From positions 1-43,044 of IMG/VR virus record IMGVR_UViG_2711768052_000001: a stretch of 43,044 bases of DNA. One strand, written 5' to 3'. Below are positions 1,427 to 40,564 of the stretch, one piece after another. Position 1 is the first letter of the stretch; the number at the start of each line of letters is the position of its first letter. Source of the DNA: a virus (lineage: Duplodnaviria; Heunggongvirae; Uroviricota; Caudoviricetes). A program made the position numbers and the translations under genes. The notes under the pieces are model-generated. The model was not told where the DNA came from and ran no database searches. It saw nothing but the letters and a program-made list of their open reading frames with translations.

Positions 1427-3898
1427 TTATTGCAGGCGATTCGCAGCATCTCCAACAGAGCCAGTAAAAGCAACGCTTGCACTTACTCCTATAGGGGGGT
1501 TCCCATTTTCAAATGTACAGCCTTGTATTGAGTCGTAATCAGTTAGGTCTGGAGAGACAGGGCTATTAATAAACCTAACAGAATTCCACTCGGCTCTTGG
1601 TAGCTGTGATGAAGAACCACCAGAAGAACTTGGTAATGCGTAGACAAATCCGCCAGATACTTTTATAAAAGAATCCATGTTCCTTCCACCTGATGAGTCT
1701 GTTAGTGAAATAATAAAGCAATCAACTAGGTTTAGTCTGCCTGGGATATCAAACTGACCTGAAAAACCATAAAAGTTACGTACATTTATTTCTGGAACAA
1801 CAGACGGAGTAGGAAAACTGGACACCTCAGTCTGCGTATACATGCACATAAGTGTCTGGACTGCAGTATTCTGACTTGCGCTCTGATGGTCTTTTTGAAA
1901 ACCACTGTGAATATTCTCAATATTAATTATTGAGTTAAAGAAAGCCCGATTATTAGTAGAGGCAACTGCGGCAGTTGTTCCACGCAAATCCGGGAGAATA
2001 ACTGGTGCTATTTTCGCAGTCCTCGGAGGTTTGCTATATTTAATATCTTTCACAGTGATACTTGATGGCATTAGTACGCTGGGGAGTATGTAATTCCCGT
2101 TGTAGTTAATTGCGACAAAAGTTAGCCATGAATCTAGTATTGCGTCATTAAACACCTCTACCGTAATGTTTTTCACAGTAACCGCCGTACCCCACGGAAC
2201 TGGTGCTGTATAGCCATAATCAGGAGTTGTTGAACTTGTTGTGCTAACACCGGCATTGAACGACACGCATGATAGAATTCCTGGTGCGGTCTCCGATGCA
2301 GAAGAAAATGATAATTCCCTCGACATCTTATACGAAATATTTTCAACAGTAATATCACCATCAAAGTAACTACCGTAATCCTCCCGCATAAAGATAACAC
2401 TTCGACGAGTTTTATCTATGTTATTTGCACTGGTTCCAGTTAGGTCTGTCTGAGATCCAAGATATTTGGCACAATTAGAGACTCTAAGATAACCTCCACC
2501 AACACCAATGAACACACCAAATTCGTGTAACTTAGTGTGATTAACGTCTATGTCGAAAAGATGATAATGTCCATCTACCCGATTTAAAGTTGAATTAGTA
2601 ACTATCAAATCTCTCGATTTATTCAGACCAATAGCTCCCCAACCTTGCACAGCATTAACGTTATCAAGAATTATTTCAGCTGCGTAGTTACTCCCCAAGA
2701 GATACGACCCATTGTTCGCGTTATAACTTGACATGGCTTCTGCAGATATGTTATCGAACCTTATCTGACTAACACCATCACCAAGATAAAATATCTGCCT
2801 GATGTTTGTTACCTTAATATTGTCGTCTTGCCGTACAGTTATATCAGAAAACTTAACCTGTGACCTTAACGCTTTAAAAACAACACCTGACGTCATACCA
2901 GACGTATCAATGTGAGCGCCTTCAACTTTCAACCAGAAGTCTTCATCAGGTCTGAAATAGGCCTCCGGAGAGGGTGATGCAGTAAAATCATGCTCAAGAG
3001 GATATTGTAAACCTCCGTATTTTGTTACACGGTTTATCGTTGTTTTGTAATATGTTGGTGCAACTTCAGCAATCTGGCGTTTGCACAGAGGATCTCTTGT
3101 ATCCATCCAAAAAGTACCACGGCTATATGTAATCATGCCGCCATAAAGAGCCATCTCACCTTTTCTCATTCCTCCTTGCGATATTTTAGAGGTAACATTT
3201 TCTGAATTTTTCCCTTGTAGAGAATAAGTTGGAGTTGTGTCAAATGAAGGCTCTCCAGAAAACTGCGGTCTAATTACGCATCCATTGAAATAAACTGGCG
3301 TTCTTACCTCTATGTTAGCCTTTGCGTCCATGGTGATTTCTGAAACATCATATAAAACAGGAATACCAAGTGTGTTTGCTTTTTTGTGAGCTAATCTTAA
3401 TTTTTCTGTTTCATCACCAACTCCGATAACACCGAAGTCTGAGATCTGTATAAATGGTTTTCTTTTTAATATATCCCCAATTGAGCCAGATGGATATGAA
3501 ATATCAGGATTAAATCCAACATATCCAGCACCATACTCTGATTCAATTATCGCTCTAAACTGATCAGGGTCATACTTCAGCACATTAGGAAAATTGAACT
3601 GCTGTGCACCATATGCATCATAAACAGCCATAGAATGGCCTTGTACAGTTACGAATTTGGCAATCTGTCCGTTATATACCGGATATCCAGCAGCGTTAAT
3701 GATGATTGGCTGTTCAACAGGAACGTGAGAGCCGTCTTCGTTCTCCACATAAACCTGAATCTGGTTTTCAGGATTTACCGGGTCCGTGTCAATTTTACCG
3801 ATATAGATTTTGCCATTGGCTACGGCTTTAAAAGAACGAGCCATAGTGAAGAGTTGCGAAGGCATGCTCACTACAACATTGGCTGTAATGTCTGTCAT
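1427..3898 (-). CDS. Tailspike protein (823 aa) with P22-type N-terminal head-binding domain and a divergent receptor-binding domain
   Basis: First about 110 aa ([11 protein letters not shown]...[13 protein letters not shown]...DTDPVNP...YDPDQ) closely match the P22 gp9 head-binding domain; the remainder is unrelated to P22, Sf6 or HK620 spikes as far as I recall. Confidence 0.9.
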
Positions 3899-5340: not shown

Positions 5341-5967
5341 TCAATGAATCCATTCCTCGCCGCGCAGTTTTGCCAGCATTGGCTGAGCGTTCTTTACGAC
5401 AAAATTGTTGGTATCAAGATTCTTCATTTCACGAAGAAGTGATTTCTTGGTTTCTTCTGACATGTAGCGAGTCTCATATGCAATATCGTAAATCCTTCCT
5501 GAAAGCTCAGAACCAATTTGCTTCATTCCTGGGTAGATGTGTTTGCACATTTGTTGACTCTTCTCCATCCACAATTGTAAGTAGCAGAGATTAACCAGTT
5601 CTTCGTCAGTAAACTGTTTTGCAATCGGTGAGCATTCTGCCTGCCGATCCAAAATATCCAGCACCCAGCGGCGGAACTCTTTGGCTACCTGAGTGCGAGC
5701 AAACATCGCGATTAGGTGGGCACCGCGTAGTGAGAAAACACGCACTTTTTTGCGATAATTTCCTGAGGTACTCACTTCGAGTACCTGAGTCATTCCGGCG
5801 CTAAACTCATCGCTATACTTGTTATAAATCATTGTTACTGCACGACTATTTGCGTATTTAAGTGCAGATGCAATATTAGATGATGTAAACCAAACACCAT
5901 GCATATCACGGGTGGGCACCAATTCAACTCCGTGGAAGTTATAATCTGATTTTGCTACAATATTCAT
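5341..5967 (-). CDS. ant: Antirepressor, Bro-N domain protein (208 aa)
   Basis: ORF 5341..6051 trimmed to MNIVAKS with AAGGAA SD; N-terminal region (GVWFTSSNIASAL...LISE-like...FRRWVLDIL) fits the Bro-N fold; immediately downstream of arc. Confidence 0.7.
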   Translation of the reverse strand: MNIVAKSDYNFHGVELVPTRDMHGVWFTSSNIASALKYANSRAVTMIYNKYSDEFSAGMTQVLEVSTSGNYRKKVRVFSLRGAHLIAMFARTQVAKEFRRWVLDILDRQAECSPIAKQFTDEELVNLCYLQLWMEKSQQMCKHIYPGMKQIGSELSGRIYDIAYETRYMSEETKKSLLREMKNLDTNNFVVKNAQPMLAKLRGEEWIH

Positions 5968-11019: not shown

Positions 11020-11712
11020 TTAAAACAACGAGCCAAGCAGACCAAGACCGCCGCCGATCGCAGCCCCCCACGGAGTTGATGAACCAATTAATTTCGCAAG
11101 TCCGGCCCCAGCAATAGCACCAGACGCACCTCCGCCAATAGCAGATTGCATTGCTGATGGTCTGTTGGCATTTGCCGCTGCAAGAGCCGCACTTTGCTGC
11201 GAAATCTGACTCATATTGTTGGCATATGTTTGCCCGGCGTTTGCCTGTCCTTGCAGTGCGCCAAGACCAATATTTGCCAGATTCTGGTAGTTGTTCATCT
11301 GACCAGATAGCCATTGCTGACCAAGCGTTGGTGCGATTGTTGCTAACTGATTACTGGTTGCGGTGGAACCTAATCCACCTGTTGCTTCCGCTGCCGCCAG
11401 ACTCTGATAACGAGCCTGACCAGCAAGATCTTTGTACTGCTGAGAGTTGTAATACTGGTTAAGTGCCTGACCTTGCCCTTCCAGAGACGATAAGTTCTCG
11501 AGGCTGCCGACATACTTATCAGCCAGAGGAGTAAACGGCTTCAGGTTGTTCATGATGGTGTTGAACTGCTGATTTTGCAGGTCTGCTGCATACTTCTGAG
11601 CTTCTGCGGCATACTTTGCGCTTTTATCAGAACTGCCACCTTTCCCACCCTTTTCAGGGCAATAAGGTTCCTCGCCGCGCAGTTTTCTGCCCAGCTTAAA
11701 TGCATATAACAT
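11020..11712 (-). CDS. DNA ejection protein, P22 gp7-like (230 aa)
   Basis: Position and size (P22 gp7 is 229 aa); Gly/Ala/Gln-rich. Confidence 0.85.
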   Translation of the reverse strand: MLYAFKLGRKLRGEEPYCPEKGGKGGSSDKSAKYAAEAQKYAADLQNQQFNTIMNNLKPFTPLADKYVGSLENLSSLEGQGQALNQYYNSQQYKDLAGQARYQSLAAAEATGGLGSTATSNQLATIAPTLGQQWLSGQMNNYQNLANIGLGALQGQANAGQTYANNMSQISQQSAALAAANANRPSAMQSAIGGGASGAIAGAGLAKLIGSSTPWGAAIGGGLGLLGSLF

Positions 11713-17373: not shown

Positions 17374-19572
17374 TTACTGCTGTGGTTGTTGCTGAGTTGA
17401 TTTTTGCAGGATGCTGCTGATGTCCATGCGCTGCGCATGGCCATGTGCCTGACTTTTCAGGACAAGCTCTGCATCAGCACGGGCATTGTCTCCTTGCTGT
17501 TGCTGGAACTGTCCGAGCAGCTTCAGAGCCTCGCGGATATCAGATTTCTGCTGACTATCGGCAGATGCGAGTATTTTCACAACATTTGCCGCTGCAACCT
17601 GAGCATCAGTCTGTGCCTGGAATGCTTTAACCTGAATGGCTGCCTGTTCGTTCTGCGCTTTCTGCAATTCAGCCTGACCAGCAAGAAGCTGACCTTGCGC
17701 TGCAACCATAGCCGGATCTGGCTGACTGGCCTGTTGTTGTTTCGCCTGTTCAACCATCTGCTGTTCTTCAGGCGTTCTCGGCTTGATAACGCCAGACAGA
17801 AGCAACTGATTGCGGTTGTATTCTTTCAGGTCGTCCATCCCTTCTCCGTCCATATTGTCGAGAATCATCGACGATACAAGGTCGTGCTTCTGCGTTCCTG
17901 GTGGGATAAGTGCCAGCATGGAAAGTAACGACTTAACCGTTGCATCACGGCGAGTAGCGAACGACTGACCGACATCGACAGTCACTTCATAGTTACCCTG
18001 CGAAAGGTCGTTAAGCGCGATAACCTGCCCTGTCTGACGGTCAACCACTTCACCAGTCATCAGCGCCACGTCATCGCTGCCGTCCTCATTAACGATACGC
18101 ATCGGCGTATCACTGCCATAGACCTCACGCGCCATAGAAAGCCACACTACGCCAGCGCGGCGCATGGATTTAGCCATGTTGTCCATGTAGATATAGGACT
18201 GCGTGTCCATCCGGTTAAAGATGCTATCAACGGTATCGGTAGCGACGTTGCTCGGCATGTTCTCAAGCTGCGACGCACCTGTAATTTGCTGAATAGCCGT
18301 TCCGGTGTACTGTAATAGCCCGGCAAGAGCAGGAGGCATTTGTGTCGGAGGTGTATAACTGCTGACCTGAGCCTGCGCAGTAATATCTCCGTTTTTGTTT
18401 TTCAGACTGACCATCGGCAGGAACGCCGGGCGCTTTTTGTTGCGCTCCGCCCAATGAGTGGCGAGAGGACCAGGAATCATGTCAACATCAACTACAGGAA
18501 TACCATCACCGCCAGCCTGAGTGGCGTTATCTGCAATCATGGAAACCATCAGGTTCTCAAGACGCTGTGCATCCATCGCTTTTGCTGCGTGGCCTTCGAT
18601 TCGCTCCTGATTATCAACAAATGAACGACGCCCATATACCGGGATGAGAGGAATATGTTCGCCCGGAATACGCTTCGGTTCTTCCAGCCATTCAGCGCCA
18701 GACAGAAGGCCGCAATAAACGCGGCGTTTCTTCACCGTTCGCTCACCAATCAGTTCGAATGCGCCATCGGTTAGCTCGTCGACAACATCTTTTATTTGCT
18801 CTTCATCATAGATTGCCGTTTCTCCGCTGACAGGATTGCGCCACGCCGTGAGCTTCACCTTCTCTATGCGAACTTCGTAGTAGCGTCCAACATAGATGGC
18901 ATCAGGCGTTGACCAGTCATACTGAGTACCAGTGTCATCACGAGAAAGACTTGCCGCGATGGAGTCAGGGTATTCAGCCTCGAACGCTTTAGGCGTCATG
19001 GAGAACATTTCCATAGCCCACATAGCATCAGAACGGTCATATTGCTTGCTGTCCTGATCGAAGAAGACGCATGTCGCTGGGTCGTAAACAGGAAGAAGGC
19101 TGATGCGTCGCTGCTCGTTACTCGGATCCATTTCATCTTCGTAATCGGCACACATGCGAAAACAACCGAATCCGCCCGTTACAGCATCATCAAATGCGTT
19201 ATCACACGCTTCGCCACCGGATGTTTCCTGATAGTCAGCGCGGAATTTGCCGTTCATCTTTTCGGCTAACGCTTCCGATGCCTTATCGTCCTTCGGCCTG
19301 AATTTAACGCTGATGCGATTCTGTCGATACTCGCCAATGATGCGATCACATTCACGGGCAATCTTATTCAGTTCAAAACGCGGATAATGCTCAAACCTGC
19401 CTTCATCAAATGAGTAACCAGCGTTTGTGCTGCCTTCCCACTGTGCGCCGGACACCCTGACGAAACGTTGAGCCTCAATAATCTGCTCACGCATATCCTG
19501 CGTTGCTGACCAGGCATTATCAAAGTTGCACAGCACCTTGCGATGCCAGTCAGTCATCTTTTTTTCTGCCAT
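17374..19572 (-). CDS. Portal protein, P22 gp1-like (732 aa)
   Basis: Size (P22 portal 725 aa), position after large terminase, Gln-rich C-terminal barrel-like tail. Confidence 0.9.
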   Translation of the reverse strand: MAEKKMTDWHRKVLCNFDNAWSATQDMREQIIEAQRFVRVSGAQWEGSTNAGYSFDEGRFEHYPRFELNKIARECDRIIGEYRQNRISVKFRPKDDKASEALAEKMNGKFRADYQETSGGEACDNAFDDAVTGGFGCFRMCADYEDEMDPSNEQRRISLLPVYDPATCVFFDQDSKQYDRSDAMWAMEMFSMTPKAFEAEYPDSIAASLSRDDTGTQYDWSTPDAIYVGRYYEVRIEKVKLTAWRNPVSGETAIYDEEQIKDVVDELTDGAFELIGERTVKKRRVYCGLLSGAEWLEEPKRIPGEHIPLIPVYGRRSFVDNQERIEGHAAKAMDAQRLENLMVSMIADNATQAGGDGIPVVDVDMIPGPLATHWAERNKKRPAFLPMVSLKNKNGDITAQAQVSSYTPPTQMPPALAGLLQYTGTAIQQITGASQLENMPSNVATDTVDSIFNRMDTQSYIYMDNMAKSMRRAGVVWLSMAREVYGSDTPMRIVNEDGSDDVALMTGEVVDRQTGQVIALNDLSQGNYEVTVDVGQSFATRRDATVKSLLSMLALIPPGTQKHDLVSSMILDNMDGEGMDDLKEYNRNQLLLSGVIKPRTPEEQQMVEQAKQQQASQPDPAMVAAQGQLLAGQAELQKAQNEQAAIQVKAFQAQTDAQVAAANVVKILASADSQQKSDIREALKLLGQFQQQQGDNARADAELVLKSQAHGHAQRMDISSILQKSTQQQPQQ

Positions 19573-19573
19573 A

Positions 19574-20989
19574 TCAACCTACACCACAAGGAATTGAGTA
19601 ACTGGAATAGTCGGGTTGCGCAGCCGACTCCGGGCAATGCATACACATCATCAGCGCATCAGCCAGGTTAGGAGATGGAATACCGAGCTTCTGCTTCATT
19701 TCGACCTTAGTCATAAGCTCCAGCTTCCCGTTGTTATTGAATTTGCGCTGAATCTGCGTCAATTCTGCAAACAGCTTCTCAAGCATCTTCTCGCCTATCG
19801 CTTCTTTGTCGAAGCTCAGCATGTCGTCGGGGTCTGCATACTCACCGTTGACAACCGCGCGATATGTCAGATACAGCCTGTCAGCCAGCGCGTAATAGAA
19901 TTGTGCTCGCTTATTGCGGAACACATCGCCAATAGTGCGAACGTTGTCACCCTGTACGACTTCATCAGCCCATGCTCCGGCCTGATATGGTGCATCTTCA
20001 TCAAATGGCGATTCGCTGCCCTTGAACATCGTAGCGGTGATTTTCTTACCGGAGAATGCTTCCGTTGTCTGTCTGCGTAGCCCTGCACCGACACCATCAC
20101 CATCCCACAAGTAGTGGTCAGCACCGTCTTCAATCGCCAGCGAAGTAGCCCAGTCAGCCCCCTCGTTGATGTCCATCAGCAGACCTTCGGCAATGCGCTT
20201 AACTACCGAACCGTGACGCGATGCATAACCTTTAGCATCCGGCCCTGTATCTGACGGGTCATGTGCAGAAACAACAGCGCCTTTCGCTTTCCATCCGAGT
20301 TTCTTGTGCGCATCGGTTGCAGCTTCAAGCCATTCTCGTTTGATGATTGCCATATCACTTGCGCTTACTGGCTCACCAAGCCAGATGTGACGATACAGTG
20401 TCGGATTTCTGCGTTTGCACTCTTCCATCTCCAGACGGAGAACTTCAGGAAAATGCGGGTTGTCGGTGTAGTTCACCGTCAGCAGACAAATATCATCGGG
20501 AGGATTTACGACGAATCGCTGATAGGTATCGTCGAGTATGTTCTTCGGGTTAAAGCTCACCCATATTTCGGAAAATGGCTTGCGGATGGTTGGTATCAGG
20601 ATATCCCATGATTCCTTCGTTACCGCTTCCGCTTCCTCCACCCAGCAGATATCAATGCCTTCGAGCGATTTAATCTTCGTCGGGTTGTTTTTGATGCCGT
20701 AGAACATGAACTCAGCATTCGTTCCGAGATGACGAATCATTGAACGCTGAATTTCAAACTCAGCCGAATACCCTTCCCGCTCTATGGTGTCTTCAAGCAA
20801 CCGAATTACCGAATCGCTGATACTGTTTTGCAGCTCACGAGCGCAAAGTATGCGCACAGGCTGCCGACGCGCCGCTTCAACAAGCAGCCTCGCAATTGCC
20901 CATGACTTACCGCTACCTCGACCGCCTTTGGCGACTTTGTAGCGATGCGCCTCAATGAACGGTTCAAAGATAGGATTAATCGAGGTCAT
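19574..20989 (-). CDS. Terminase large subunit (471 aa), Sf6 gp2-like
   Basis: Walker A KGGRGSGKS near the N-terminus; sequence recalled as near-identical to Sf6 large terminase. Confidence 0.95.
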   Translation of the reverse strand: MTSINPIFEPFIEAHRYKVAKGGRGSGKSWAIARLLVEAARRQPVRILCARELQNSISDSVIRLLEDTIEREGYSAEFEIQRSMIRHLGTNAEFMFYGIKNNPTKIKSLEGIDICWVEEAEAVTKESWDILIPTIRKPFSEIWVSFNPKNILDDTYQRFVVNPPDDICLLTVNYTDNPHFPEVLRLEMEECKRRNPTLYRHIWLGEPVSASDMAIIKREWLEAATDAHKKLGWKAKGAVVSAHDPSDTGPDAKGYASRHGSVVKRIAEGLLMDINEGADWATSLAIEDGADHYLWDGDGVGAGLRRQTTEAFSGKKITATMFKGSESPFDEDAPYQAGAWADEVVQGDNVRTIGDVFRNKRAQFYYALADRLYLTYRAVVNGEYADPDDMLSFDKEAIGEKMLEKLFAELTQIQRKFNNNGKLELMTKVEMKQKLGIPSPNLADALMMCMHCPESAAQPDYSSYSIPCGVG

Positions 20990-21414
20990 TTTCCGAATAG
21001 AGTGCTCATCGGTGATGTTTCAATCTGGATTGCGCCGCCGTCCTTACCGACAAGCTCGTTAGTTACCTTGTCGCCATACTTACGGGGATTCATTCGGGCC
21101 AGCGCCCATTTGCGGGTATCAACGCGAAGTCTTGCCTTTGCCACCTCAGCAGCATCTGGAATCGCATTGTCAGCAATTTCGAATATCTCTTCGAAAATAG
21201 AATCAGCTCGTGCCTCAGTTGCCTTCGCGTACTTGTCGCGAAAATCCTCATGCTTTGCCAACCAGCGGAAAACAGTGGACTTATCCGGCATACCAGGACG
21301 CTTACATACTTTCAGCAAACTTTCGCCAGAAGAAAGCAACGAGCAGATATCGTCGGCCACCTCCGGCATATAATCAGAGGGGCGACCAGCTTTTGGTTCA
21401 GTCGCCATATTCAT
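20986..21414 (-). CDS. Terminase small subunit (about 140 aa), Sf6 gp1-like
   Basis: MATEPKAGRPSDYMPEVADDICSLLSSGESLLKVCKRPGMPDKSTVFRWL recalled as Sf6 gp1; the true start may be the Met at 21408. Confidence 0.9.
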   Translation of the reverse strand: MNMATEPKAGRPSDYMPEVADDICSLLSSGESLLKVCKRPGMPDKSTVFRWLAKHEDFRDKYAKATEARADSIFEEIFEIADNAIPDAAEVAKARLRVDTRKWALARMNPRKYGDKVTNELVGKDGGAIQIETSPMSTLFGK

Positions 21415-21620: not shown

Positions 21621-21908
21621 CTATAATTTTGAATATCCAGACTCAAATACCTCAGCAGGAGAATATGATTCATATCCATCCTCATAGACAACGTAATAGC
21701 CTCCAGACATTGGTCGGTGCTTACAGATATATTCCGCGCTAACATCAAATGCTGCGTATTTCTTATCATCCGGATGAATAATTGCCCCATAACTAGAAGA
21801 GCCAGTCTTACCAGACTGATCTGGGTTTGGCTTATGTTCTATAGAGCCAATCTTCAGGGCGCGAACTTTTTTGTGGCACTGGTATCTCGGCATTTCTTGT
21901 TCAGTCAT
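21621..21908 (-). CDS. Hypothetical protein (95 aa)
   Basis: ORF with Tyr/Gly-rich C-terminus; tightly packed upstream of the terminase genes. Confidence 0.6.
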   Translation of the reverse strand: MTEQEMPRYQCHKKVRALKIGSIEHKPNPDQSGKTGSSSYGAIIHPDDKKYAAFDVSAEYICKHRPMSGGYYVVYEDGYESYSPAEVFESGYSKL

Positions 21909-21911
21909 CTC

Positions 21912-22091
21912 TTACACTCCGGTAGTGAACAGGTCTAACGCTTCCTTCGATTTACGCACCGCTTCGATAGTGCGGGTCGTGATATCTGAATTAGCGCCGC
22001 CTGACTGGAAGTGAATTTTGAATAGCTCAAGCTTCAGCTCGTCAGTGCCAATGAATTGAAATGCTTCCTCTGCGGCTGCGTTCTGGTTCAT
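21912..22091 (-). CDS. Hypothetical small protein (59 aa); may be the C-terminal part of a frameshifted gene
   Basis: ATG ORF with poor SD; an overlapping upstream 37-codon frame has a good SD (see findings). Confidence 0.3.
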   Translation of the reverse strand: MNQNAAAEEAFQFIGTDELKLELFKIHFQSGGANSDITTRTIEAVRKSKEALDLFTTGV

Positions 22092-22258
22092 GACCAGCTT
22101 GTAAATCTCTAACTGGAATTTGCTGTTCTTCAGTCATGGGAATAATCTCTGCCATTGTTGGCTCCGTTTATCCGTTAAAAGGGATATCAGTTAAGTTATC
22201 CCGTGTAGGGTATAAGCCATTATCAAAGCCACTCTGTAGGGAATGGCTTTTGTAATAA

Positions 22259-22639
22259 CTACTGTTCGCTTAGCTTCTGCTTCAGCAAGTAACCTTCGAG
22301 CATCCAGATTTTGTTTACAGCATTTTGCCTGGCAATCTTCCGACCAATTTCTGCATCAAAGTTTTCCGGGCTTGCACAGGCGCTCTCTCCGGTGACGGTG
22401 AAGCCATTCTTCAGCACCAGTACGCAGAAAGTGAGCAACTTCAATGGTGATAAATCACGATCGCCTTCTTCTGGTTTTTCCCTGCCACAATATTCGTTGC
22501 TGGAAATGGCACCATTACGTCCATCATAAGCAGTAAAGTAATGCTCGCTTTTAATCACGTCTTCGATGTGCTGCGGAGTGATTCTCGGAGCGGTTTTGCC
22601 TTTCTCAACGATTTCTTTTTCGATTTGCTGGTCGTTCAT
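22259..22639 (-). CDS. Hypothetical protein (126 aa)
   Basis: ORF followed by a conserved post-stop hairpin element. Confidence 0.6.
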   Translation of the reverse strand: MNDQQIEKEIVEKGKTAPRITPQHIEDVIKSEHYFTAYDGRNGAISSNEYCGREKPEEGDRDLSPLKLLTFCVLVLKNGFTVTGESACASPENFDAEIGRKIARQNAVNKIWMLEGYLLKQKLSEQ

Positions 22640-22865
22640 AATTATGACCCTGTGGAGTGGTTGCTTGATTAGGATGTCTTTCCATCAGTCCGCCACCACA
22701 AAGAATCTTTTTTTGCCATAAGGCAGGAGGTTCATCTTTCAGTGGCTGCCAGTGTTATTTCCCCACTTACTGGCTTGGGTTGTTTCGCTGTACTGCCGTA
22801 ACTGGTTGCCAAGAATAAATTCTGGTTTCATTATCAAGCCCACCCGTAGATAGGCTTTGTAATGG

Positions 22866-23153
22866 CTACTTCTTCAGAACTGATTCGATGAATTCACGTC
22901 GGGGATGACGATAGTTCAGAATATCTTCTGGCATCCTCATAAAGCGGTTGTTGCCGTCTTTGGCAGTAACAAAACAGCTGTGAACTCCGCAGACATCCGT
23001 TTTGATTGTGTCGCTATACTCAAAAAGCAACTGAGCCATCTTCTCTTGCCATTCTGGCGGCATAGCCTCCATGAATACTCGCGGCATCACGCAGAACGGC
23101 GCATGCGTAAGACCAAACCACAGTTGCAGGTCTTTACGATATTCTTCATCCAT
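22866..23153 (-). CDS. Hypothetical protein (95 aa)
   Basis: AAGG SD; preceded by a terminator and followed by the same post-stop element as the 126-aa gene. Confidence 0.6.
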   Translation of the reverse strand: MDEEYRKDLQLWFGLTHAPFCVMPRVFMEAMPPEWQEKMAQLLFEYSDTIKTDVCGVHSCFVTAKDGNNRFMRMPEDILNYRHPRREFIESVLKK

Positions 23154-23171
23154 CGTCTTTACCTTTGTTGC

Positions 23172-23197
23172 AATAAAAAGCCCCGCGAATGCGAGGC
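23172..23197 (-). terminator. Rho-independent terminator between the lysis cassette and downstream late genes
   Basis: Minus-strand GCCUCGC-AUUC-GCGGGGC hairpin followed by UUUUUAUU. Confidence 0.55.
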
Positions 23198-23371
23198 TAA
23201 ATCCTGGTATTTGTAATGACTGGCTCTTATCTCAACGCAGCCCCTTACCGCGCGCAAGATGCTCAATATCAAGCATCAGCAATGAGATGTTTAATCTGGA
23301 TTCACTCCAGAAGTGATCACCACCCTGTCTACAGAGCCAGATGTGAAGGATGATGAGTAAAATTATCGCTA

Positions 23372-23839
23372 TCATCGAAGGCATTGCGTCCTGATGTATT
23401 CCTGAAGCGTTCTCAGTGCTGTTTGGTCGCGGATAATTCCGTCCCGGATATCGAGAACGTTTCGTCCAGCAACTGGAGAGAGTTCGACGGTGGCATCATT
23501 GCCCATGCCGGAGGCGCTGGAGGTTTTGGCTGAGGATGGCACAGGGCATTTTCCTTTGACGAGCACCCTGCCACCATTATCAAGCTTGCGCCGAAGAGCA
23601 TCATTTTCAGCTTTCGCATCAGCTAACTCCTTCGTGTATTTAGCATCGAGTGCATCAGCATCACGCTGGCGCTGTTGCATGTCAGTAATGGTGGCGTTCG
23701 CCAGCTTCAGCTCACTGACTTTTTTATCGCGCTGCTCTTTGTAGGTAATGGCGTTATCACGGTAATGATTAACAGCCCATGACAGGCAGACGATGATGCA
23801 GATAACCAGAGCTGAGATAATCGCGGTTACTCTGCTCAT
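23372..23839 (-). CDS. Rz: Spanin, inner-membrane subunit Rz (155 aa)
   Basis: N-terminal TM segment and coiled coil; strong similarity to lambda Rz; directly downstream of R. Confidence 0.9.
23413..23619 (-). CDS. Rz1: Spanin, outer-membrane lipoprotein subunit Rz1, embedded in the +1 frame of Rz
   Basis: [21 protein letters not shown] lipobox followed by a proline-rich stretch [11 protein letters not shown], like lambda Rz1. Confidence 0.8.
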
Positions 23840-24312
23840 GCCTCAATCTCTCTGACCGTTCCGCCAGCTTCTTTGAATTTTGCAATCAGGCTGTCAGCCT
23901 TATGCTCGAACTGACCATAACCAGCGCCCGGCAGTGAAGCCCAGATATTGCTGCAACGGTCGATAGCCTGACGAATATCACCGCGATCAATCATTGGTAA
24001 AGCGCCACGCTCTTTAATCTGTTGCAGTGCCACAGCGTCCTGGCTTTTCGGAGAGAAGTCTTTCAGGCCAAGCTGCTTACGATAGGCATCCCACCAACGG
24101 GAAAGAAGCTGGTAACGTCCGGCTGCTGTTGATTTGAGTTTGGGGTTTAGCGTGACAAGTTTGCGAGGGTGATCGGAGTAATCAGTGAATAGCTCTCCGC
24201 CAACAATGACGTCATAACCATGATTTCTGGTTTTCTGACGTCCGTTATCAGTCCCCTCTGACCACGCCAGCATATCGAGGAACGCCTTACGTTGATTATT
24301 GATTTCCACCAT
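23836..24312 (-). CDS. R: Endolysin R, lytic transglycosylase (158 aa)
   Basis: [39 protein letters not shown]... recalled as near-identical to lambda R. Confidence 0.97.
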
Positions 24313-24619
24313 CTTCTACTCCGGCTTTTTTAGCAGCGAAGCGTTTGATAAGCGAACCAATCGAGTCAGTACCGATGTAGCCGATGAACACGCTCGTTAT
24401 ATAAGCGAGATTACTACTTAGTCCGGCGAAGTCGAGAAGGTCACGAATGAACCAGGCGATAATGGCGCACATCGTTGCGTCGATTACTGTTTTTGTAAAC
24501 GCACCGCCATTATATCTGCCGCGAAGGTACGCCATTGCAAACGCAAGGATTGCCCCGATGCCTTGTTCCTTTGCCGCGAGAATGGCGGCTAACAGGTCAT
24601 GTTTTTCTGGCATCTTCAT
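24296..24619 (-). CDS. S: Holin S with dual-start motif (107 aa)
   Basis: [39 protein letters not shown]... recalled as near-identical to lambda S, including the MKM S107/S105 starts. Confidence 0.97.
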
Positions 24620-27057: not shown

Positions 27058-27665
27058 GCGGCCTCACTTCTGCTATTTCGCAGGTCTTTGAGTTTCTGTT
27101 GGTACTCTGCCTTGATCGCCTTGCACTCTTCGATAGTCCAGCGATGGCGGTTATGGTTTGATTCGATTTCGTCTACTGCTTCCTGCCCGATGCGGCTAAT
27201 CAGTTCGACGCGATACGGAACGAGATTTCCGCTTTTGTGCTGGTTGCACACCACGCATTGCTTGTGAATATTGCGTTCATCAAATCGGAGTTGAGGTGCC
27301 GCAGCAGTTGTCCGGTAATGGCCGGCATCCCACTGAGCAGACGTGAGCGTTCCGCACGAGATACATGGTAAGTCGCGGTCTCTTTCTCTGATGAAGGCGT
27401 TTACGGCTTGTTGGGCTTGTTTAATCCAGTAACTGCGGGGCTTTAAGGCGAGTTTTCGAATCTTAAGTTTATCTTTCTGTTTCTGCTCCTCTCGTCGTCG
27501 TTTCTTCTCTGCTGCTTTTTCCGCTTTTTCGCGTTCTTTACTTCGTCGTTCGAGTGCTATCTTGGTTCCACACTCTGGAGAGCACCACCACTGATTAGCG
27601 AATGCAGGGTGAAACCATTCCCGACATTCACCGTTTTTACATCGTCTTCGTGCTGGTTTAGCCAT
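27054..27665 (-). CDS. ninG: NinG/Rap recombination protein (203 aa)
   Basis: [33 protein letters not shown]... matches lambda NinG as recalled. Confidence 0.9.
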
Positions 27666-36797: not shown

Positions 36798-36898
36798 TGG
36801 TGACCGCGAAGGAATGCGGGTATGCCTTAATTTGTCCCGAGTCGAAGTATTAAATCAGCGTTATTTCCTTGGGCCATGTCCATTCTGAGAACAATCAT

Positions 36899-40108: not shown

Positions 40109-40327
40109 GGTGCCTACACTATTCAGGAAAACTATCCGCGAAAGAGTAGAGCAATAGAATTGCTGTTTATCATTCTGTTTTTCGTGTTGCTGATACCAAT
40201 ATCCTCAATATTAGTGACTGTTCTAGTGGGGAAAGCATTTGAACCGTTAGTTGACCTGTATATCGATATAGTGTGTAAACCATTCGGGGCACTACACAAT
40301 AAAATTAACCCATACAAGGAAACTGAT

Positions 40328-40564
40328 ATGGCAACTTTGACAAAAGAAGAGAGTTTTACCAAAAAACAAATCGCCGAGGCAAAAATCCTCGACAATAACG
40401 GAACATACTTTATCAACGGCTCCATCCTTCCTGTTTATATCAATGAAAATGGCGACACTTACCTTATTGAAGAGTACGAAAAAGGCAAGCCGAGCGAACA
40501 CCTCATTAAAGACTTATTCGCCGACGGCGTTCTTGTTGCTGTTAATCCGATTGGCTACAACTAA
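40328..40564 (+). CDS. Hypothetical protein (78 aa)
   Basis: AAGGAAA SD at Met57 of ORF 40160..40564; the hydrophobic N-terminal extension starts at TTG without SD in an AT-rich tract. Confidence 0.5.
   Translation: MATLTKEESFTKKQIAEAKILDNNGTYFINGSILPVYINENGDTYLIEEYEKGKPSEHLIKDLFADGVLVAVNPIGYN

What the first reader, a model, noticed from the sequence alone, without database searches (positions are those of the whole stretch)
22201..22865. Conserved about 40-bp hairpin element repeated immediately after the stop codons of two consecutive late-region genes
The 3' flanks of the 126-aa gene (22201..22258) and the 95-aa gene (22829..22865) share about 80% identity over about 40 bp (minus strand TTACAAA(A)GCC...CTACRGRGTGGCTTGATAATG) with a conserved stem (AAGCC/GGCTT) and compensatory changes. 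A weaker third copy lies at 23206..23231 downstream of Rz. No protein feature explains this; it could be a processing, attenuation or small-RNA element, or the boundary of a mobile gene cassette. A 30-codon ORF with an SD (22739..22831, minus) starts inside the 22829..22865 copy.
Basis: seen in the sequence. Interest (0 to 1): 0.5.

Follow-up and report, generated by a model that had tools for sequence, protein, structure and literature searches.

The report
T7-like RNase III hairpins between phage genes
The two repeated hairpins are real copies of a widespread, apparently undescribed family of RNA stem-loops in lambda-like phages that closely resemble the RNase III cutting sites of phage T7, sit right after accessory genes in the late operon, and mark where those genes get swapped between phages.

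Summary
The "third copy" is only a 9-nt remnant next to a true terminator.

Both belong to a large family found in P22-like, HK97/HK022-like, ES18 and Stx phages and in prophages across Enterobacterales. The layout is: stop codon, (G/C)C-AUUA lower stem, CA/GA internal loop, 9-10-bp upper stem, variable loop, UAAUG.

Evidence that it acts as sense-strand RNA:
- Covariation in the upper stem is strong.
- G·U pairs vastly outnumber A·C.
- Every copy lies on the late-gene strand.

Conservation falls to zero just outside the element. The flanks are extremely mosaic, with about 139 upstream contexts.

The upper stems match phage T7 RNase III sites R1.1 and R1. A model built from the lambdoid hairpins finds only named RNase III sites in T7. 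A model built from T7 sites ranks these hairpins top in the window and in P22.

Best reading (about 0.7): these are RNase III processing and stabilising signals in the Q-antiterminated late mRNA, which also serve as crossover points for accessory-gene cassettes. RNase III cleavage itself is untested.

The 30-codon ORF is not a gene.

The parts
22215..22260 (-). Hairpin A, T7 R1.1-like. Lower stem 22253-22260 pairs with 22215-22222. Internal loop is CA (22251-22252) opposite GA (22223-22224). The 10-bp upper stem AAAGCCAUUC/GAGUGGCUUU is 22241-22250 with 22225-22234. The loop is 22235-22240. By analogy with T7 R1.1, RNase III is predicted to cut between 22223 and 22222.
   Evidence: Fold. Model R1 62.8 bits. 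T7-site model R2 top hit in the window (18.8 bits, E 0.06). The upper stem-loop is 77% identical to T7 R1.1.
22829..22865 (-). Hairpin B, T7 R1/R0.3-like. Lower stem CAUUA (22860-22864) pairs with UAAUG (22829-22833). Internal loop is CA (22858-22859) opposite GA (22834-22835). The 9-bp upper stem AAGCCUAUC/GGUGGGCUU is 22849-22857 with 22836-22844. The tetraloop UACG is 22845-22848. Predicted cut is between 22834 and 22833.
   Evidence: Fold. R1 52.1 bits. R2 third-best hit in the window (14.3 bits). The same hairpin follows four different upstream genes in Huey, Sf6, HK620 and the window.
23210..23218 (-). CATTACAAA, a truncated 5' remnant of a former hairpin.
   Evidence: no model hit. Sf6 has the full hairpin at the same junction.
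23179..23198 (-). Genuine intrinsic terminator: an 8-bp GC-rich stem followed by UUUUUAUU. It lies after the gene-65-like ORF. In other phages the same terminator directly abuts a hairpin.
   Evidence: Ayreon and PhiR40_1 contexts.
22866..23153 (-). 95-aa accessory ORF whose TAG abuts hairpin B (upstream cassette). It matches only the C-terminal 92 positions of a 233-position phage family.
22259..22639 (-). 126-aa accessory gene of the Phage_gp49_66 family (Sf6 gp66-like). Its TAG lies inside the lower stem of hairpin A. This gene travels with hairpin A in 13 of 13 occurrences.
22673..22799 (-). Conserved 126-128-nt non-coding spacer between hairpin B and the next cassette. If both sites are cut, it would be the 5' leader of the gp66 transcript.

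Best explanation
The two elements are members of a family of sense-strand RNA stem-loops, 45-55 nt long. They most likely act as RNase III processing signals of the phage T7 R1/R1.1 type within the long late mRNA of lambdoid phages.

**Shown**
- The structure is selected in the sense strand.
- It sits between cistrons, directly after stop codons or after a terminator. It lies in the accessory-gene region between the lysis genes and the packaging genes.
- It has no U-tract.
- Its upper stem carries the UA/UG distal box and the A-U proximal-box pairs of T7 R1.1. An internal loop lies 9-10 bp below the apical loop.
- It is the exact junction between unrelated flanking modules.

**Inferred**
- Host RNase III cuts once, on the 3' side of the internal loop, between GA and UAAUG.
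- The upstream cistron is left with a 3'-terminal hairpin that blocks 3'-to-5' exonucleases.
- The downstream packaging and structural mRNA gets a new 5' end. This would uncouple the decay of accessory/lysis segments from that of structural segments.
- Because it is the only sequence conserved among otherwise unrelated accessory genes, it also becomes the place where recombination joins, deletes and swaps cassettes.
For: **Structure and strand**
- The fold is significant on the sense strand only.
- In a search that left the five stem positions free, 27 different arm pairs almost all pair. G·U occurs in more than 80 instances against 2 A·C.
- On a MAFFT alignment, 91% of cells pair, 10 pairs show double changes, and 0/500 shuffles match this. 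Slid controls pair 33-44%.
- All copies in a locus share one strand, with 1-4 copies per locus.

**Position**
- 49% of 139 distinct upstream contexts have an ORF ending 1-6 nt before the element, against 5% at random positions. Another 14 have a terminator T-run.
- The next gene with a Shine-Dalgarno site starts 19-100 nt downstream in about half of contexts.
- The location after Rz/Rz1 and before the small terminase holds in Serratia, Erwinia and Rahnella; in Yersinia only the downstream small terminase was seen.

**T7 link**
- T7 R1.1 reads AAGGUCAUUC-GCAA-GAGUGGCCUU. Hairpin A reads AAAGCCAUUC-CCUACA-GAGUGGCUUU.
- T7 R1 contains CAUCUGCGGGUGG, and so does the Huey variant of hairpin B.
- Model R1, built only from lambdoid hairpins, gives just four hits in T7 on both strands. 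All four lie in the intergenic regions upstream of genes 1.1, 1, 18.5 and 3.8, where the named sites R1.1, R1, R18.5 and R3.8 lie.
- Model R2, built only from seven T7 sites, ranks hairpins A and B as the best matches in the window. It ranks the P22 hairpin first and the HK97 hairpin third in those two genomes.

**Published rules for RNase III**
- Required features are an 11-bp helix, a UA/UG distal box with a stringent UG, and A-U proximal-box pairs. An internal loop gives a single cut that leaves a protective 3' hairpin (PMC1540722).

**Mosaic joint**
- Information content is about 0 bits outside positions -5 to the ATG.
- There are 84 flank combinations in 157 copies.
- Phage 1717 has one hybrid hairpin where HK620 has two hairpins plus a 218-nt spacer.
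Against: - No cleavage data exist for any family member, so the assignment rests on resemblance.
- Individual model E-values across phage families are weak (0.06-3.8). The argument relies on where the hits fall.
- T7 site coordinates are from my memory of Dunn & Studier 1983. They are supported only indirectly by the site names and gene map.
- The lower stem and internal loop (CAUUA-CA/GA-UAAUG) are nearly invariant in the lambdoid family, more so than RNase III rules require. They differ from T7's CUC/UAUGA loop, so another factor may read them.
- Hairpin A has A-U where T7 has the preferred G-C at proximal-box position 1.
- The commonest variant elsewhere (GCAGG/CCUGU) would place a C-G at predicted position 2, a reported binding antideterminant, if my register is correct.
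- Hairpin B has only about 16-17 helical positions. T7 R1 is equally short.
Confidence: 0.68

Rival explanations
1. The element is primarily a DNA-level recombination site. It would be a linker or boundary sequence, or the end of a mobile gene cassette, like T4 PeSLs or integron attC sites. Its raison d'être would be to shuffle accessory genes, and any RNA role would be secondary.
For: - Sharp borders of conservation.
- 139 upstream and 126 downstream contexts, and 84 flank combinations.
- ORF-hairpin-ORF-hairpin arrays.
- Polymorphisms of one hairpin versus two hairpins plus a spacer.
- Hairpin subtype tracks the upstream gene more than the downstream sequence: mutual information 3.7 versus 2.9 bits.
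- The PeSL precedent (PMC2839356).
Against: - G·U is tolerated but A·C is not, and strand polarity is strict. This points to a single sense strand rather than duplex DNA.
- The similarity to RNase III sites is specific.
- No dedicated recombinase travels with it. DUF2560, the commonest neighbour, is within 1.5 kb in only 48 of 171 loci.
- No empty sites were found.
- Shuffling is equally expected as a by-product of any conserved intergenic element.
Confidence: 0.12
2. The element is a translational device. A ribosome terminating at the stop codon at the 5' foot melts the lower stem and exposes the AUG at the 3' foot. This would couple the two cistrons by termination-reinitiation, or conversely the hairpin would insulate them.
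For: - The stop codon is 1-6 nt from the element in 49% of contexts.
- The AUG at the 3' foot is invariant.
- A weak Shine-Dalgarno-like GGUGG lies in the 3' arm of the B type.
Against: - The AUG opens mini-ORFs of mostly 1-10 unconserved codons.
- Only 1 of 126 contexts uses it as a start with a Shine-Dalgarno site.
- Real downstream genes have their own ribosome-binding site 19-100 nt away.
- Mini-ORF stops do not cluster at downstream starts.
- The AUG is equally explained as the 3' strand of the CAUUA/UAAUG lower stem.
Confidence: 0.07
3. The element is an operator for an unidentified sequence-specific RNA-binding factor, from host or phage. The factor would read the invariant CAUUA-CA/GA-UAAUG lower stem and internal loop. 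The upper hairpin would be only a scaffold.
For: The lower stem and internal loop are nearly invariant even in copies not selected by any search pattern, while the upper stem and loop vary.
Against: - No conserved partner gene is nearby.
- This does not explain the T7-like upper stem.
- No Rfam family matches.
Confidence: 0.08
4. The element is a transcription terminator, either on the sense strand (as annotated in phage Ayreon) or for antisense transcripts from reverse-oriented morons such as P22 pid.
For: - Ayreon's record labels the copy as a terminator.
- The reverse complement of hairpin A is followed by UUUUGUAAU.
- P22 pid converges on the hairpin.
Against: - There is no U-tract on the sense strand, and the scan does not call either hairpin.
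- The antisense hairpin carries A·C mismatches and folds worse.
- The commonest variant has no antisense U-run.
- P22 pid has its own separate, experimentally supported terminator about 55 nt away (PMC8835761).
Confidence: 0.03

Closest known systems
Phage T7 RNase III processing signals (R0.3, R0.5, R1, R1.1, R1.3, R4.7, R18.5 and others)
   Same: - Intercistronic hairpins on the sense strand of polycistronic phage mRNA, placed just after stop codons of small accessory genes.
- A lower stem, an internal loop, a 9-10-bp upper stem and a small loop.
- Near-identical upper-stem sequence: CAUUC/GAGUG with the UA/UG distal box, AAG.../...CUU at the base, and CAUCUGCGGGUGG in R1.
- No U-tract.
- Reciprocal covariance-model hits.
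   Different: - The lambdoid family has a symmetric 2x2 CA/GA internal loop and an almost invariant CAUUA/UAAUG lower stem. T7 has an asymmetric CUC/UAUGA loop and variable lower stems.
- The five basal pairs of the upper stem vary and covary in lambdoid phages, but are fixed (AAGGNC) in T7.
- The transcripts are host-polymerase, Q-antiterminated late mRNA in temperate phages.
- Cleavage has not been demonstrated.
Lambda sib / tI retroregulation site (RNase III)
   Same: - A lambdoid-phage RNase III hairpin downstream of a gene.
- It forms only in read-through (antiterminated) transcripts.
- 14 family contexts place the hairpin directly after an intrinsic terminator, as in the window's ancestry.
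   Different: - sib overlaps the terminator itself and destabilises the upstream int mRNA.
- I found no sequence similarity, and the model gives no hit at the annotated HK97 sib.
- The direction of the regulatory effect here is unknown.
T4-type PeSLs (promoter-early stem-loops), mobile regulatory cassettes
   Same: Short conserved regulatory motifs that flank non-essential ORFs in plastic regions. Recombination between copies inserts, deletes and replaces genes (PMC2839356; compare).
   Different: - PeSLs combine a strong sigma-70 promoter with a terminator stem-loop.
- The present element has neither a promoter match nor a U-tract.
Integron attC sites
   Same: - Imperfect hairpins placed right after cassette ORFs.
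- Conserved outer inverted repeats with a variable centre.
- One orientation, in arrays.
   Different: - No integron integrase is present.
- No R'/R'' core sites.
- The element is much shorter.
- The evidence favours an RNA role.
Boundary sequences (bsq) annotated in Sf6 and HK620
   Same: Short conserved stretches at mosaic joints of lambdoid genomes.
   Different: In the Sf6 stretch fetched here, the only annotated boundary sequence (bsq7) lies inside gene 63. The hairpins are not annotated there.

Membership tests
E. coli RNase III single-cleavage processing signal (T7 R1/R1.1 type) | Irregular hairpin of about two helical turns, with at least 11 helical positions between the scissile bond and the loop | tested here: met
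   Hairpin A has 8 + 2 + 10 positions. Hairpin B has 5-6 + 2 + 9, the same as T7 R1. The rule is from PMC1540722.
E. coli RNase III single-cleavage processing signal (T7 R1/R1.1 type) | Internal loop below the upper stem that restricts cutting to one strand | tested here: met
   A CA/GA 2x2 loop lies 9-10 bp below the apical loop in both copies. It is nearly invariant across the family.
E. coli RNase III single-cleavage processing signal (T7 R1/R1.1 type) | Distal box UA/UG, with a stringent U·G at position 2 | tested here: met
   Hairpin A has CAUUC/GAGUG, giving U-A plus U·G exactly as in T7 R1.1. Hairpin B has AUC/GGU (U·G, A-U), as in T7 R1 and R0.3. U·G occurs in 47 of 50 aligned copies, though this is partly ascertainment.
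E. coli RNase III single-cleavage processing signal (T7 R1/R1.1 type) | Proximal box: G-C at position 1, A-U/U-A at positions 2-4, and no G-C/C-G at positions 2 or 4 | tested here: inconclusive
   Both window copies have A-U at predicted positions 2-3 and a mismatch at position 4, but A-U rather than G-C at position 1. The common GCAGG/CCUGU variant elsewhere would have C-G at position 2. The register was inferred without the published figure.
E. coli RNase III single-cleavage processing signal (T7 R1/R1.1 type) | Sequence and structure similarity to experimentally established sites | tested here: met
   R1 on T7 gives 4 of 4 hits in the R1.1, R1, R18.5 and R3.8 intergenic regions. R2 on the window, P22 and HK97 ranks the hairpins at or near the top.
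E. coli RNase III single-cleavage processing signal (T7 R1/R1.1 type) | Cleavage by RNase III in vivo or in vitro | not testable with these tools
   The held library contains no RNA-end data for these phages.
Intrinsic (Rho-independent) terminator | GC-rich stem immediately followed by a U-tract | tested here: not met
   The stems are followed by GAUAAUG. The terminator scan calls 23179-23198 but neither hairpin.
T4-type PeSL mobile regulatory cassette | Strong sigma-70 promoter fused to a terminator stem-loop | tested here: not met
   No promoter call overlaps the elements on the sense strand. Only the behaviour of shuffling between copies is shared.
Integron attC | R''/L''...L'/R' core sites recognised by an IntI integrase encoded nearby | tested here: not met
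   No conserved recombinase neighbours the elements. The flanks ATTACA/GATAATG do not fit RYYYAAC/GTTRRRY on direct reading.
Any Rfam 15 family | Match at the gathering score | tested here: not met
   There were zero matches in the window. Only two chance-level hits with E above 1 were found in 21900-23400.
Chi recombination hotspot | 5'-GCTGGTGG-3' | tested here: not met
   The window has no Chi at all. Its hairpin B reads ACGGGTGG. In 33 of 234 other loci a hairpin contains a true Chi, in the B-type variants seen in the loop and 3' arm.

The most novel reading that the evidence does not exclude
The hairpins may be portable RNase III "punctuation marks" that define self-contained expression cassettes: an accessory ORF plus its 3' processing and stabiliser hairpin. 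Such cassettes could be exchanged among lambdoid phages, and possibly with T7-like phages, given the near-identical upper stems.

Where two hairpins bracket the ultra-conserved 126-nt non-coding spacer (P22, HK620, ST64T, HK97), RNase III would excise a stable small RNA from the late transcript. That RNA carries an ACCUCCU motif resembling the anti-Shine-Dalgarno sequence, and its function is unknown.
Probability: 0.2. Interest if true: 0.7.

Novelty: new member of a known kind. Interest (0 to 1): 0.5.

Why it matters
- **RNA processing in the late operon.** If confirmed, the late operon of P22-, HK97- and Stx-type phages is not one uniform mRNA. Host RNase III would cut it at accessory-gene boundaries. 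This gives a concrete, testable handle on differential expression of lysis, accessory and packaging genes.
- **Annotation.** It explains an unannotated element present in hundreds of phage and prophage genomes. The element is mislabelled as a terminator in Ayreon and as orf25 in P22.
- **Genome mosaicism.** It gives a mechanistic reason why mosaic joints in this hyper-variable region fall at exactly the same nucleotides.
- **Evolution.** The similarity to T7 sites raises a question. Do RNase III signals converge on one optimal sequence, or are they exchanged between virulent and temperate phages?

Tried and rejected
- **Attenuator with a leader peptide.** The 9-codon ORF after hairpin A overlaps small hairpins. 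But mini-ORF sequences and lengths vary freely, and the pattern is tandem TATCCC...GGGATA hairpins rather than alternative pairings.
- **Ribosome-binding-site sequestration or coupling.** Rejected as the main role.
- **Promoter.** GATAAT could be a -10 element, but there is no conserved -35, and covariation requires a hairpin.
- **IHF, DnaA, LexA or dif-like sites, and IS200/IS605 or HUH-nuclease targets.** Only partial motif resemblances on reading the sequence. They are not consistent across subtypes.
- **DUF2560/hkbM as a protein partner.** It is the commonest neighbour, but it lies within 1.5 kb in only 48 of 171 loci and in 1 of 34 genome loci.
- **Known prophage small RNAs (AgvB/AsxR, Pas).** These map upstream of the lysis genes, not here.
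- **E. coli K-12 DLP12 and Qin, and phage lambda.** No copy was found, so K-12 RNase III datasets cannot be used.
- **Chi.** Real in some variants elsewhere, but absent from the window.
- **Empty-site search for hairpin-only insertions.** None found.
- **Weak model hit at 19505-19554.** It lies inside the portal gene and is chance.
- **GenBank feature tables for T7.** As shown by the tool, they do not list the RNase III sites, so the coordinates could not be confirmed directly.

Full report
**Setting**

The window is a P22-like (Sf6/HK620-type) prophage. Its late genes run on the minus strand in this order:
- holin, 24296-24619
- endolysin, 23836-24312
- Rz, 23372-23839
- a 50-aa gene-65 homologue, 23232-23384
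- an intrinsic terminator, 23179-23198
- a 95-aa ORF, 22866-23153
- a 126-aa Sf6-gp66-family gene, 22259-22639
- a DUF2560/hkbM homologue
- small terminase, 20986-21414
- large terminase, 19574-20989

**The observation**

Two copies are real.
- Hairpin A (22215-22260) and hairpin B (22829-22865) begin at or within the stop codons of the 126-aa and 95-aa ORFs.
- They share 30 of 39 core columns.
- Both fold into the same two-part stem on the minus strand. The energies are -20.6 and -18.3 kcal/mol, with z scores of -4.6 and -4.3. The plus strand folds worse because several pairs are G·U.
- A covariance model of the family scores them 62.8 and 52.1 bits and finds nothing else in the 43 kb.

The "third copy" is only CATTACAAA at 23210-23218. 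Sf6 has a complete hairpin B at exactly that junction. So in the window a former hairpin was truncated and replaced by a terminator plus the 95-aa ORF.

The 30-codon ORF starts at the element's invariant terminal ATG. It is 3 codons long in Sf6 and HK620, it has no family match, and it runs into non-coding sequence.

**A large family**

- BLAST finds hairpin B in 146 GenBank phage records and hairpin A in 31. These include P22-like phages, HK022, the HK97-like mEp phages, ES18, Stx phages, and Klebsiella and Enterobacter phages.
- A scan of one genome per species found 59 loci across Enterobacterales, including Serratia, Pectobacterium, Erwinia, Yersinia, Rahnella, Klebsiella and Citrobacter.
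- Where flanks could be read in distant genera, the element follows Rz/Rz1 or a small ORF and precedes the terminase genes.
- Lambda and the K-12 prophages DLP12 and Qin lack it. P22 has one copy and HK97 has two.

**Anatomy**

The layout is:
- a stop codon
- (G/C)C-AUUA
- CA
- a 9-10-bp upper stem
- a loop of 3-6 nt
- GA
- UAAUG, followed by G or C

The lower stem and the internal loop are nearly invariant, even in copies that were not selected by any search pattern. The upper stem and the loop vary.

**The structure is selected, in the sense strand**

- One search left the five basal upper-stem positions free on both sides. It returned 27 different arm combinations, for example GCAGG/CCUGU, AAAGC/GCUUU, GGUGG/CCAUC and GAGAC/GUCUC. 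Almost all of them pair. G·U occurs in more than 80 instances and A·C in two.
- On a MAFFT alignment of 50 distinct copies, 91% of cells pair and ten pairs show changes on both sides. No shuffle out of 500 reaches the observed values, and slid registers pair only 33-44%.
- The pair just outside AUUA/UAAU also covaries, as CC..GG versus GC..GC.
- Every locus carries its 1-4 copies on one strand, the strand of the adjacent ORFs.

**Position relative to genes**

- Among 139 distinct upstream contexts, 68 have an ORF of at least 40 codons ending 1-6 nt before ATTACA. At random positions the figure is 5%. Fourteen more have a terminator T-run immediately upstream.
- The terminal AUG opens mini-ORFs of mostly 1-10 unconserved codons. 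Only 1 of 126 downstream contexts uses it as a start with a Shine-Dalgarno site.
- The real next gene starts 19-100 nt further on in about half of contexts.
- Neighbouring genes are diverse. DUF2560 is the commonest on both sides, followed by small terminase and HNH. But it is within 1.5 kb in only 48 of 171 loci.

**A mosaic joint**

- Information content is about 0 bits beyond position -5 and beyond the ATG.
- 157 copies show 55 upstream and 44 downstream clusters in 84 combinations.
- Copies bracket single small ORFs or pairs of ORFs.
- Stx phage 1717 has hkbL, then one hairpin, then the hkbM leader. HK620 has hkbL, hairpin B, a 218-nt spacer, a second hairpin, and then the same leader.
- Hairpin A always accompanies gp66.

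**What it is**

Folding the intergenic regions of phage T7 that hold its RNase III sites showed the same architecture and strikingly similar upper stems.

| Site | Upper stem-loop |
|---|---|
| T7 R1.1 | AAGGUCAUUC-GCAA-GAGUGGCCUU |
| Hairpin A | AAAGCCAUUC-CCUACA-GAGUGGCUUU |
| T7 R1 | UUACAGGUCAUCUGCGGGUGGCCUGAAUA |
| Hairpin B | AUUACAAAGCCUAUCUACGGGUGGGCUUGAUAAUG |

The Huey variant of hairpin B reads ...CUAUCUGCGGGUGGGC....

Two reciprocal, independent tests followed.
- **Lambdoid model on T7.** The model built only from lambdoid hairpins was run without filters over both strands of T7. It returned four hits with E below 10. They lie at 5861-5884, 3115-3134, 36826-36858 and 11200-11237. 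These are the intergenic regions upstream of genes 1.1, 1, 18.5 and 3.8, where sites R1.1, R1, R18.5 and R3.8 lie. That placement rests on the gene map, the site naming and the R3.8/phi3.8 relation in PMC6938266, and the use of the 5843-5909 sequence as an "RNase III splice site" in PMC6615863. The exact cut coordinates are from my memory of Dunn & Studier 1983.
- **T7 model on lambdoid genomes.** A model built only from seven T7 sites ranked hairpin A first, its reverse complement second and hairpin B third in the whole window. It ranked the P22 hairpin first and the HK97 hairpin third across those two genomes.

Published rules for E. coli RNase III (PMC1540722) require the following:
- an 11-bp helix between the cut and the loop
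- a UA/UG distal box with a stringent U·G
- A-U pairs at proximal-box positions 2-4
- an internal loop, which limits cutting to one strand and leaves a 3' hairpin that protects against 3'-5' exonucleases

Hairpin A carries UA plus UG (CAUUC/GAGUG) and A-U at predicted positions 2-3. Hairpin B matches the R1/R0.3 variant.

R1.1 yields a 28-nt upper stem-loop product. By that analogy, the cut should fall 2 nt 3' of the upper stem. That places it between 22223 and 22222 for hairpin A, and between 22834 and 22833 for hairpin B.

**Mechanism proposed**

In the prophage without Q, transcription stops at terminators such as 23179-23198. With Q, RNA polymerase reads through the whole region. Each hairpin forms in the late mRNA, and host RNase III would cut it once. 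The upstream accessory or lysis segment would keep a protective 3' hairpin. The downstream segment would gain a new 5' end.

- **Shown:** the structure, its strand, its position and its resemblance to T7 sites.
- **Inferred:** the cleavage itself and its consequences.

Because the element is the only conserved sequence among unrelated accessory genes, recombination between copies explains the cassette shuffling, much as with T4 PeSLs (PMC2839356).

**Caveats**

- No cleavage data exist for any family member.
- Cross-family E-values are individually weak.
- The invariance of the lower stem and internal loop exceeds what RNase III rules demand.
- Proximal-box position 1 is A-U in hairpin A.
- The commonest variant elsewhere may carry an antideterminant at position 2.
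- I found no prior description in the held library and no Rfam family. Older subscription literature could not be searched.

Noticed in passing
window 22673-22799 (-): A 126-128-nt stretch between hairpin B and the gp66 gene is more than 95% identical in P22, HK97, HK022, Sf6, HK620, ST64T and many IMG/VR contigs. It tolerates frame-breaking indels (6 or 7 A's, a G-run), so it is non-coding. It contains ACCUCCU, like the 16S anti-Shine-Dalgarno sequence, inside a predicted long hairpin. In P22, HK620, ST64T and HK97 it is bracketed by two of the RNase III-like hairpins, so it is a candidate processed small RNA or conserved leader.
   Followed up: partly
window 22122 (-), within 21912-22155: The DUF2560/hkbM homologue is split into two ORFs (22042-22155 and 21912-22091) by a single extra C relative to P22 orf80. 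This is a frameshifted pseudogene or a sequencing error.
   Followed up: yes
window 22866-23153 (-): The 95-aa ORF matches only positions 139-230 of a 233-position PHROG family (phrog_3527). It may be the C-terminal remnant of a longer gene, truncated where the terminator now sits.
   Followed up: no
IMG/VR loci (e.g. L011, L023); window hairpin B 22836-22848: In 33 of 234 loci a hairpin carries a true Chi site (GCTGGTGG), which in the B-type variants seen spans the loop and 3' arm, in the orientation active for RecBCD entering from the packaging end. Those loci have about twice the co-oriented Chi density (0.49 against 0.25 per kb; opposite strand about 0.04). The window has no Chi anywhere, and its hairpin B reads ACGGGTGG. 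Two loop positions seem to toggle Chi on and off. This fits the report that lambdoid phages lacking a recombination module are enriched in Chi (PMC12315714).
   Followed up: partly
P22 NC_002371 (L303) 40302-40357: The annotated P22 orf25 (40329-40406) starts in the loop of the P22 copy of this hairpin, so it is probably not a gene. The reverse-oriented pid moron, with its own terminator at about 40408-40432, is inserted immediately 3' of the hairpin.
   Followed up: partly
window 22181-22213 (-), and many loci: Directly after the hairpin, many contexts carry one to three small hairpins of the form (U)UAUCCC(C)-N5-7-GGGAUA(A). In the window these are UAUACCC..GGGAUAA and GGGAUA..UAUCCC. Their meaning is unknown.
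   Followed up: no
L014 (phage PhiR40_1) 2501-2539: One copy of hairpin A has its apical part exactly inverted: CCACUCUGUAGGGAGUGG against CCAUUCCCUACAGAGUGG. This is a hairpin-tip flip of the kind seen at small palindromes.
   Followed up: no
L260 (Pectobacterium carotovorum) 2707-2743: A copy of the hairpin follows a 292-aa secreted-protein gene next to icd, with no recognisable lysis or terminase genes nearby. This may be a cargo gene left by a decayed prophage at the icd integration site.
   Followed up: no
HK97 NC_002167 (L304) 27554-27599 (-): A weak model hit (18.9 bits) with CAUUACA, 13 nt, then GAUAAUG at the gp49/gp48 junction in the early region. It could be a miniature relative or chance.
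   Followed up: no
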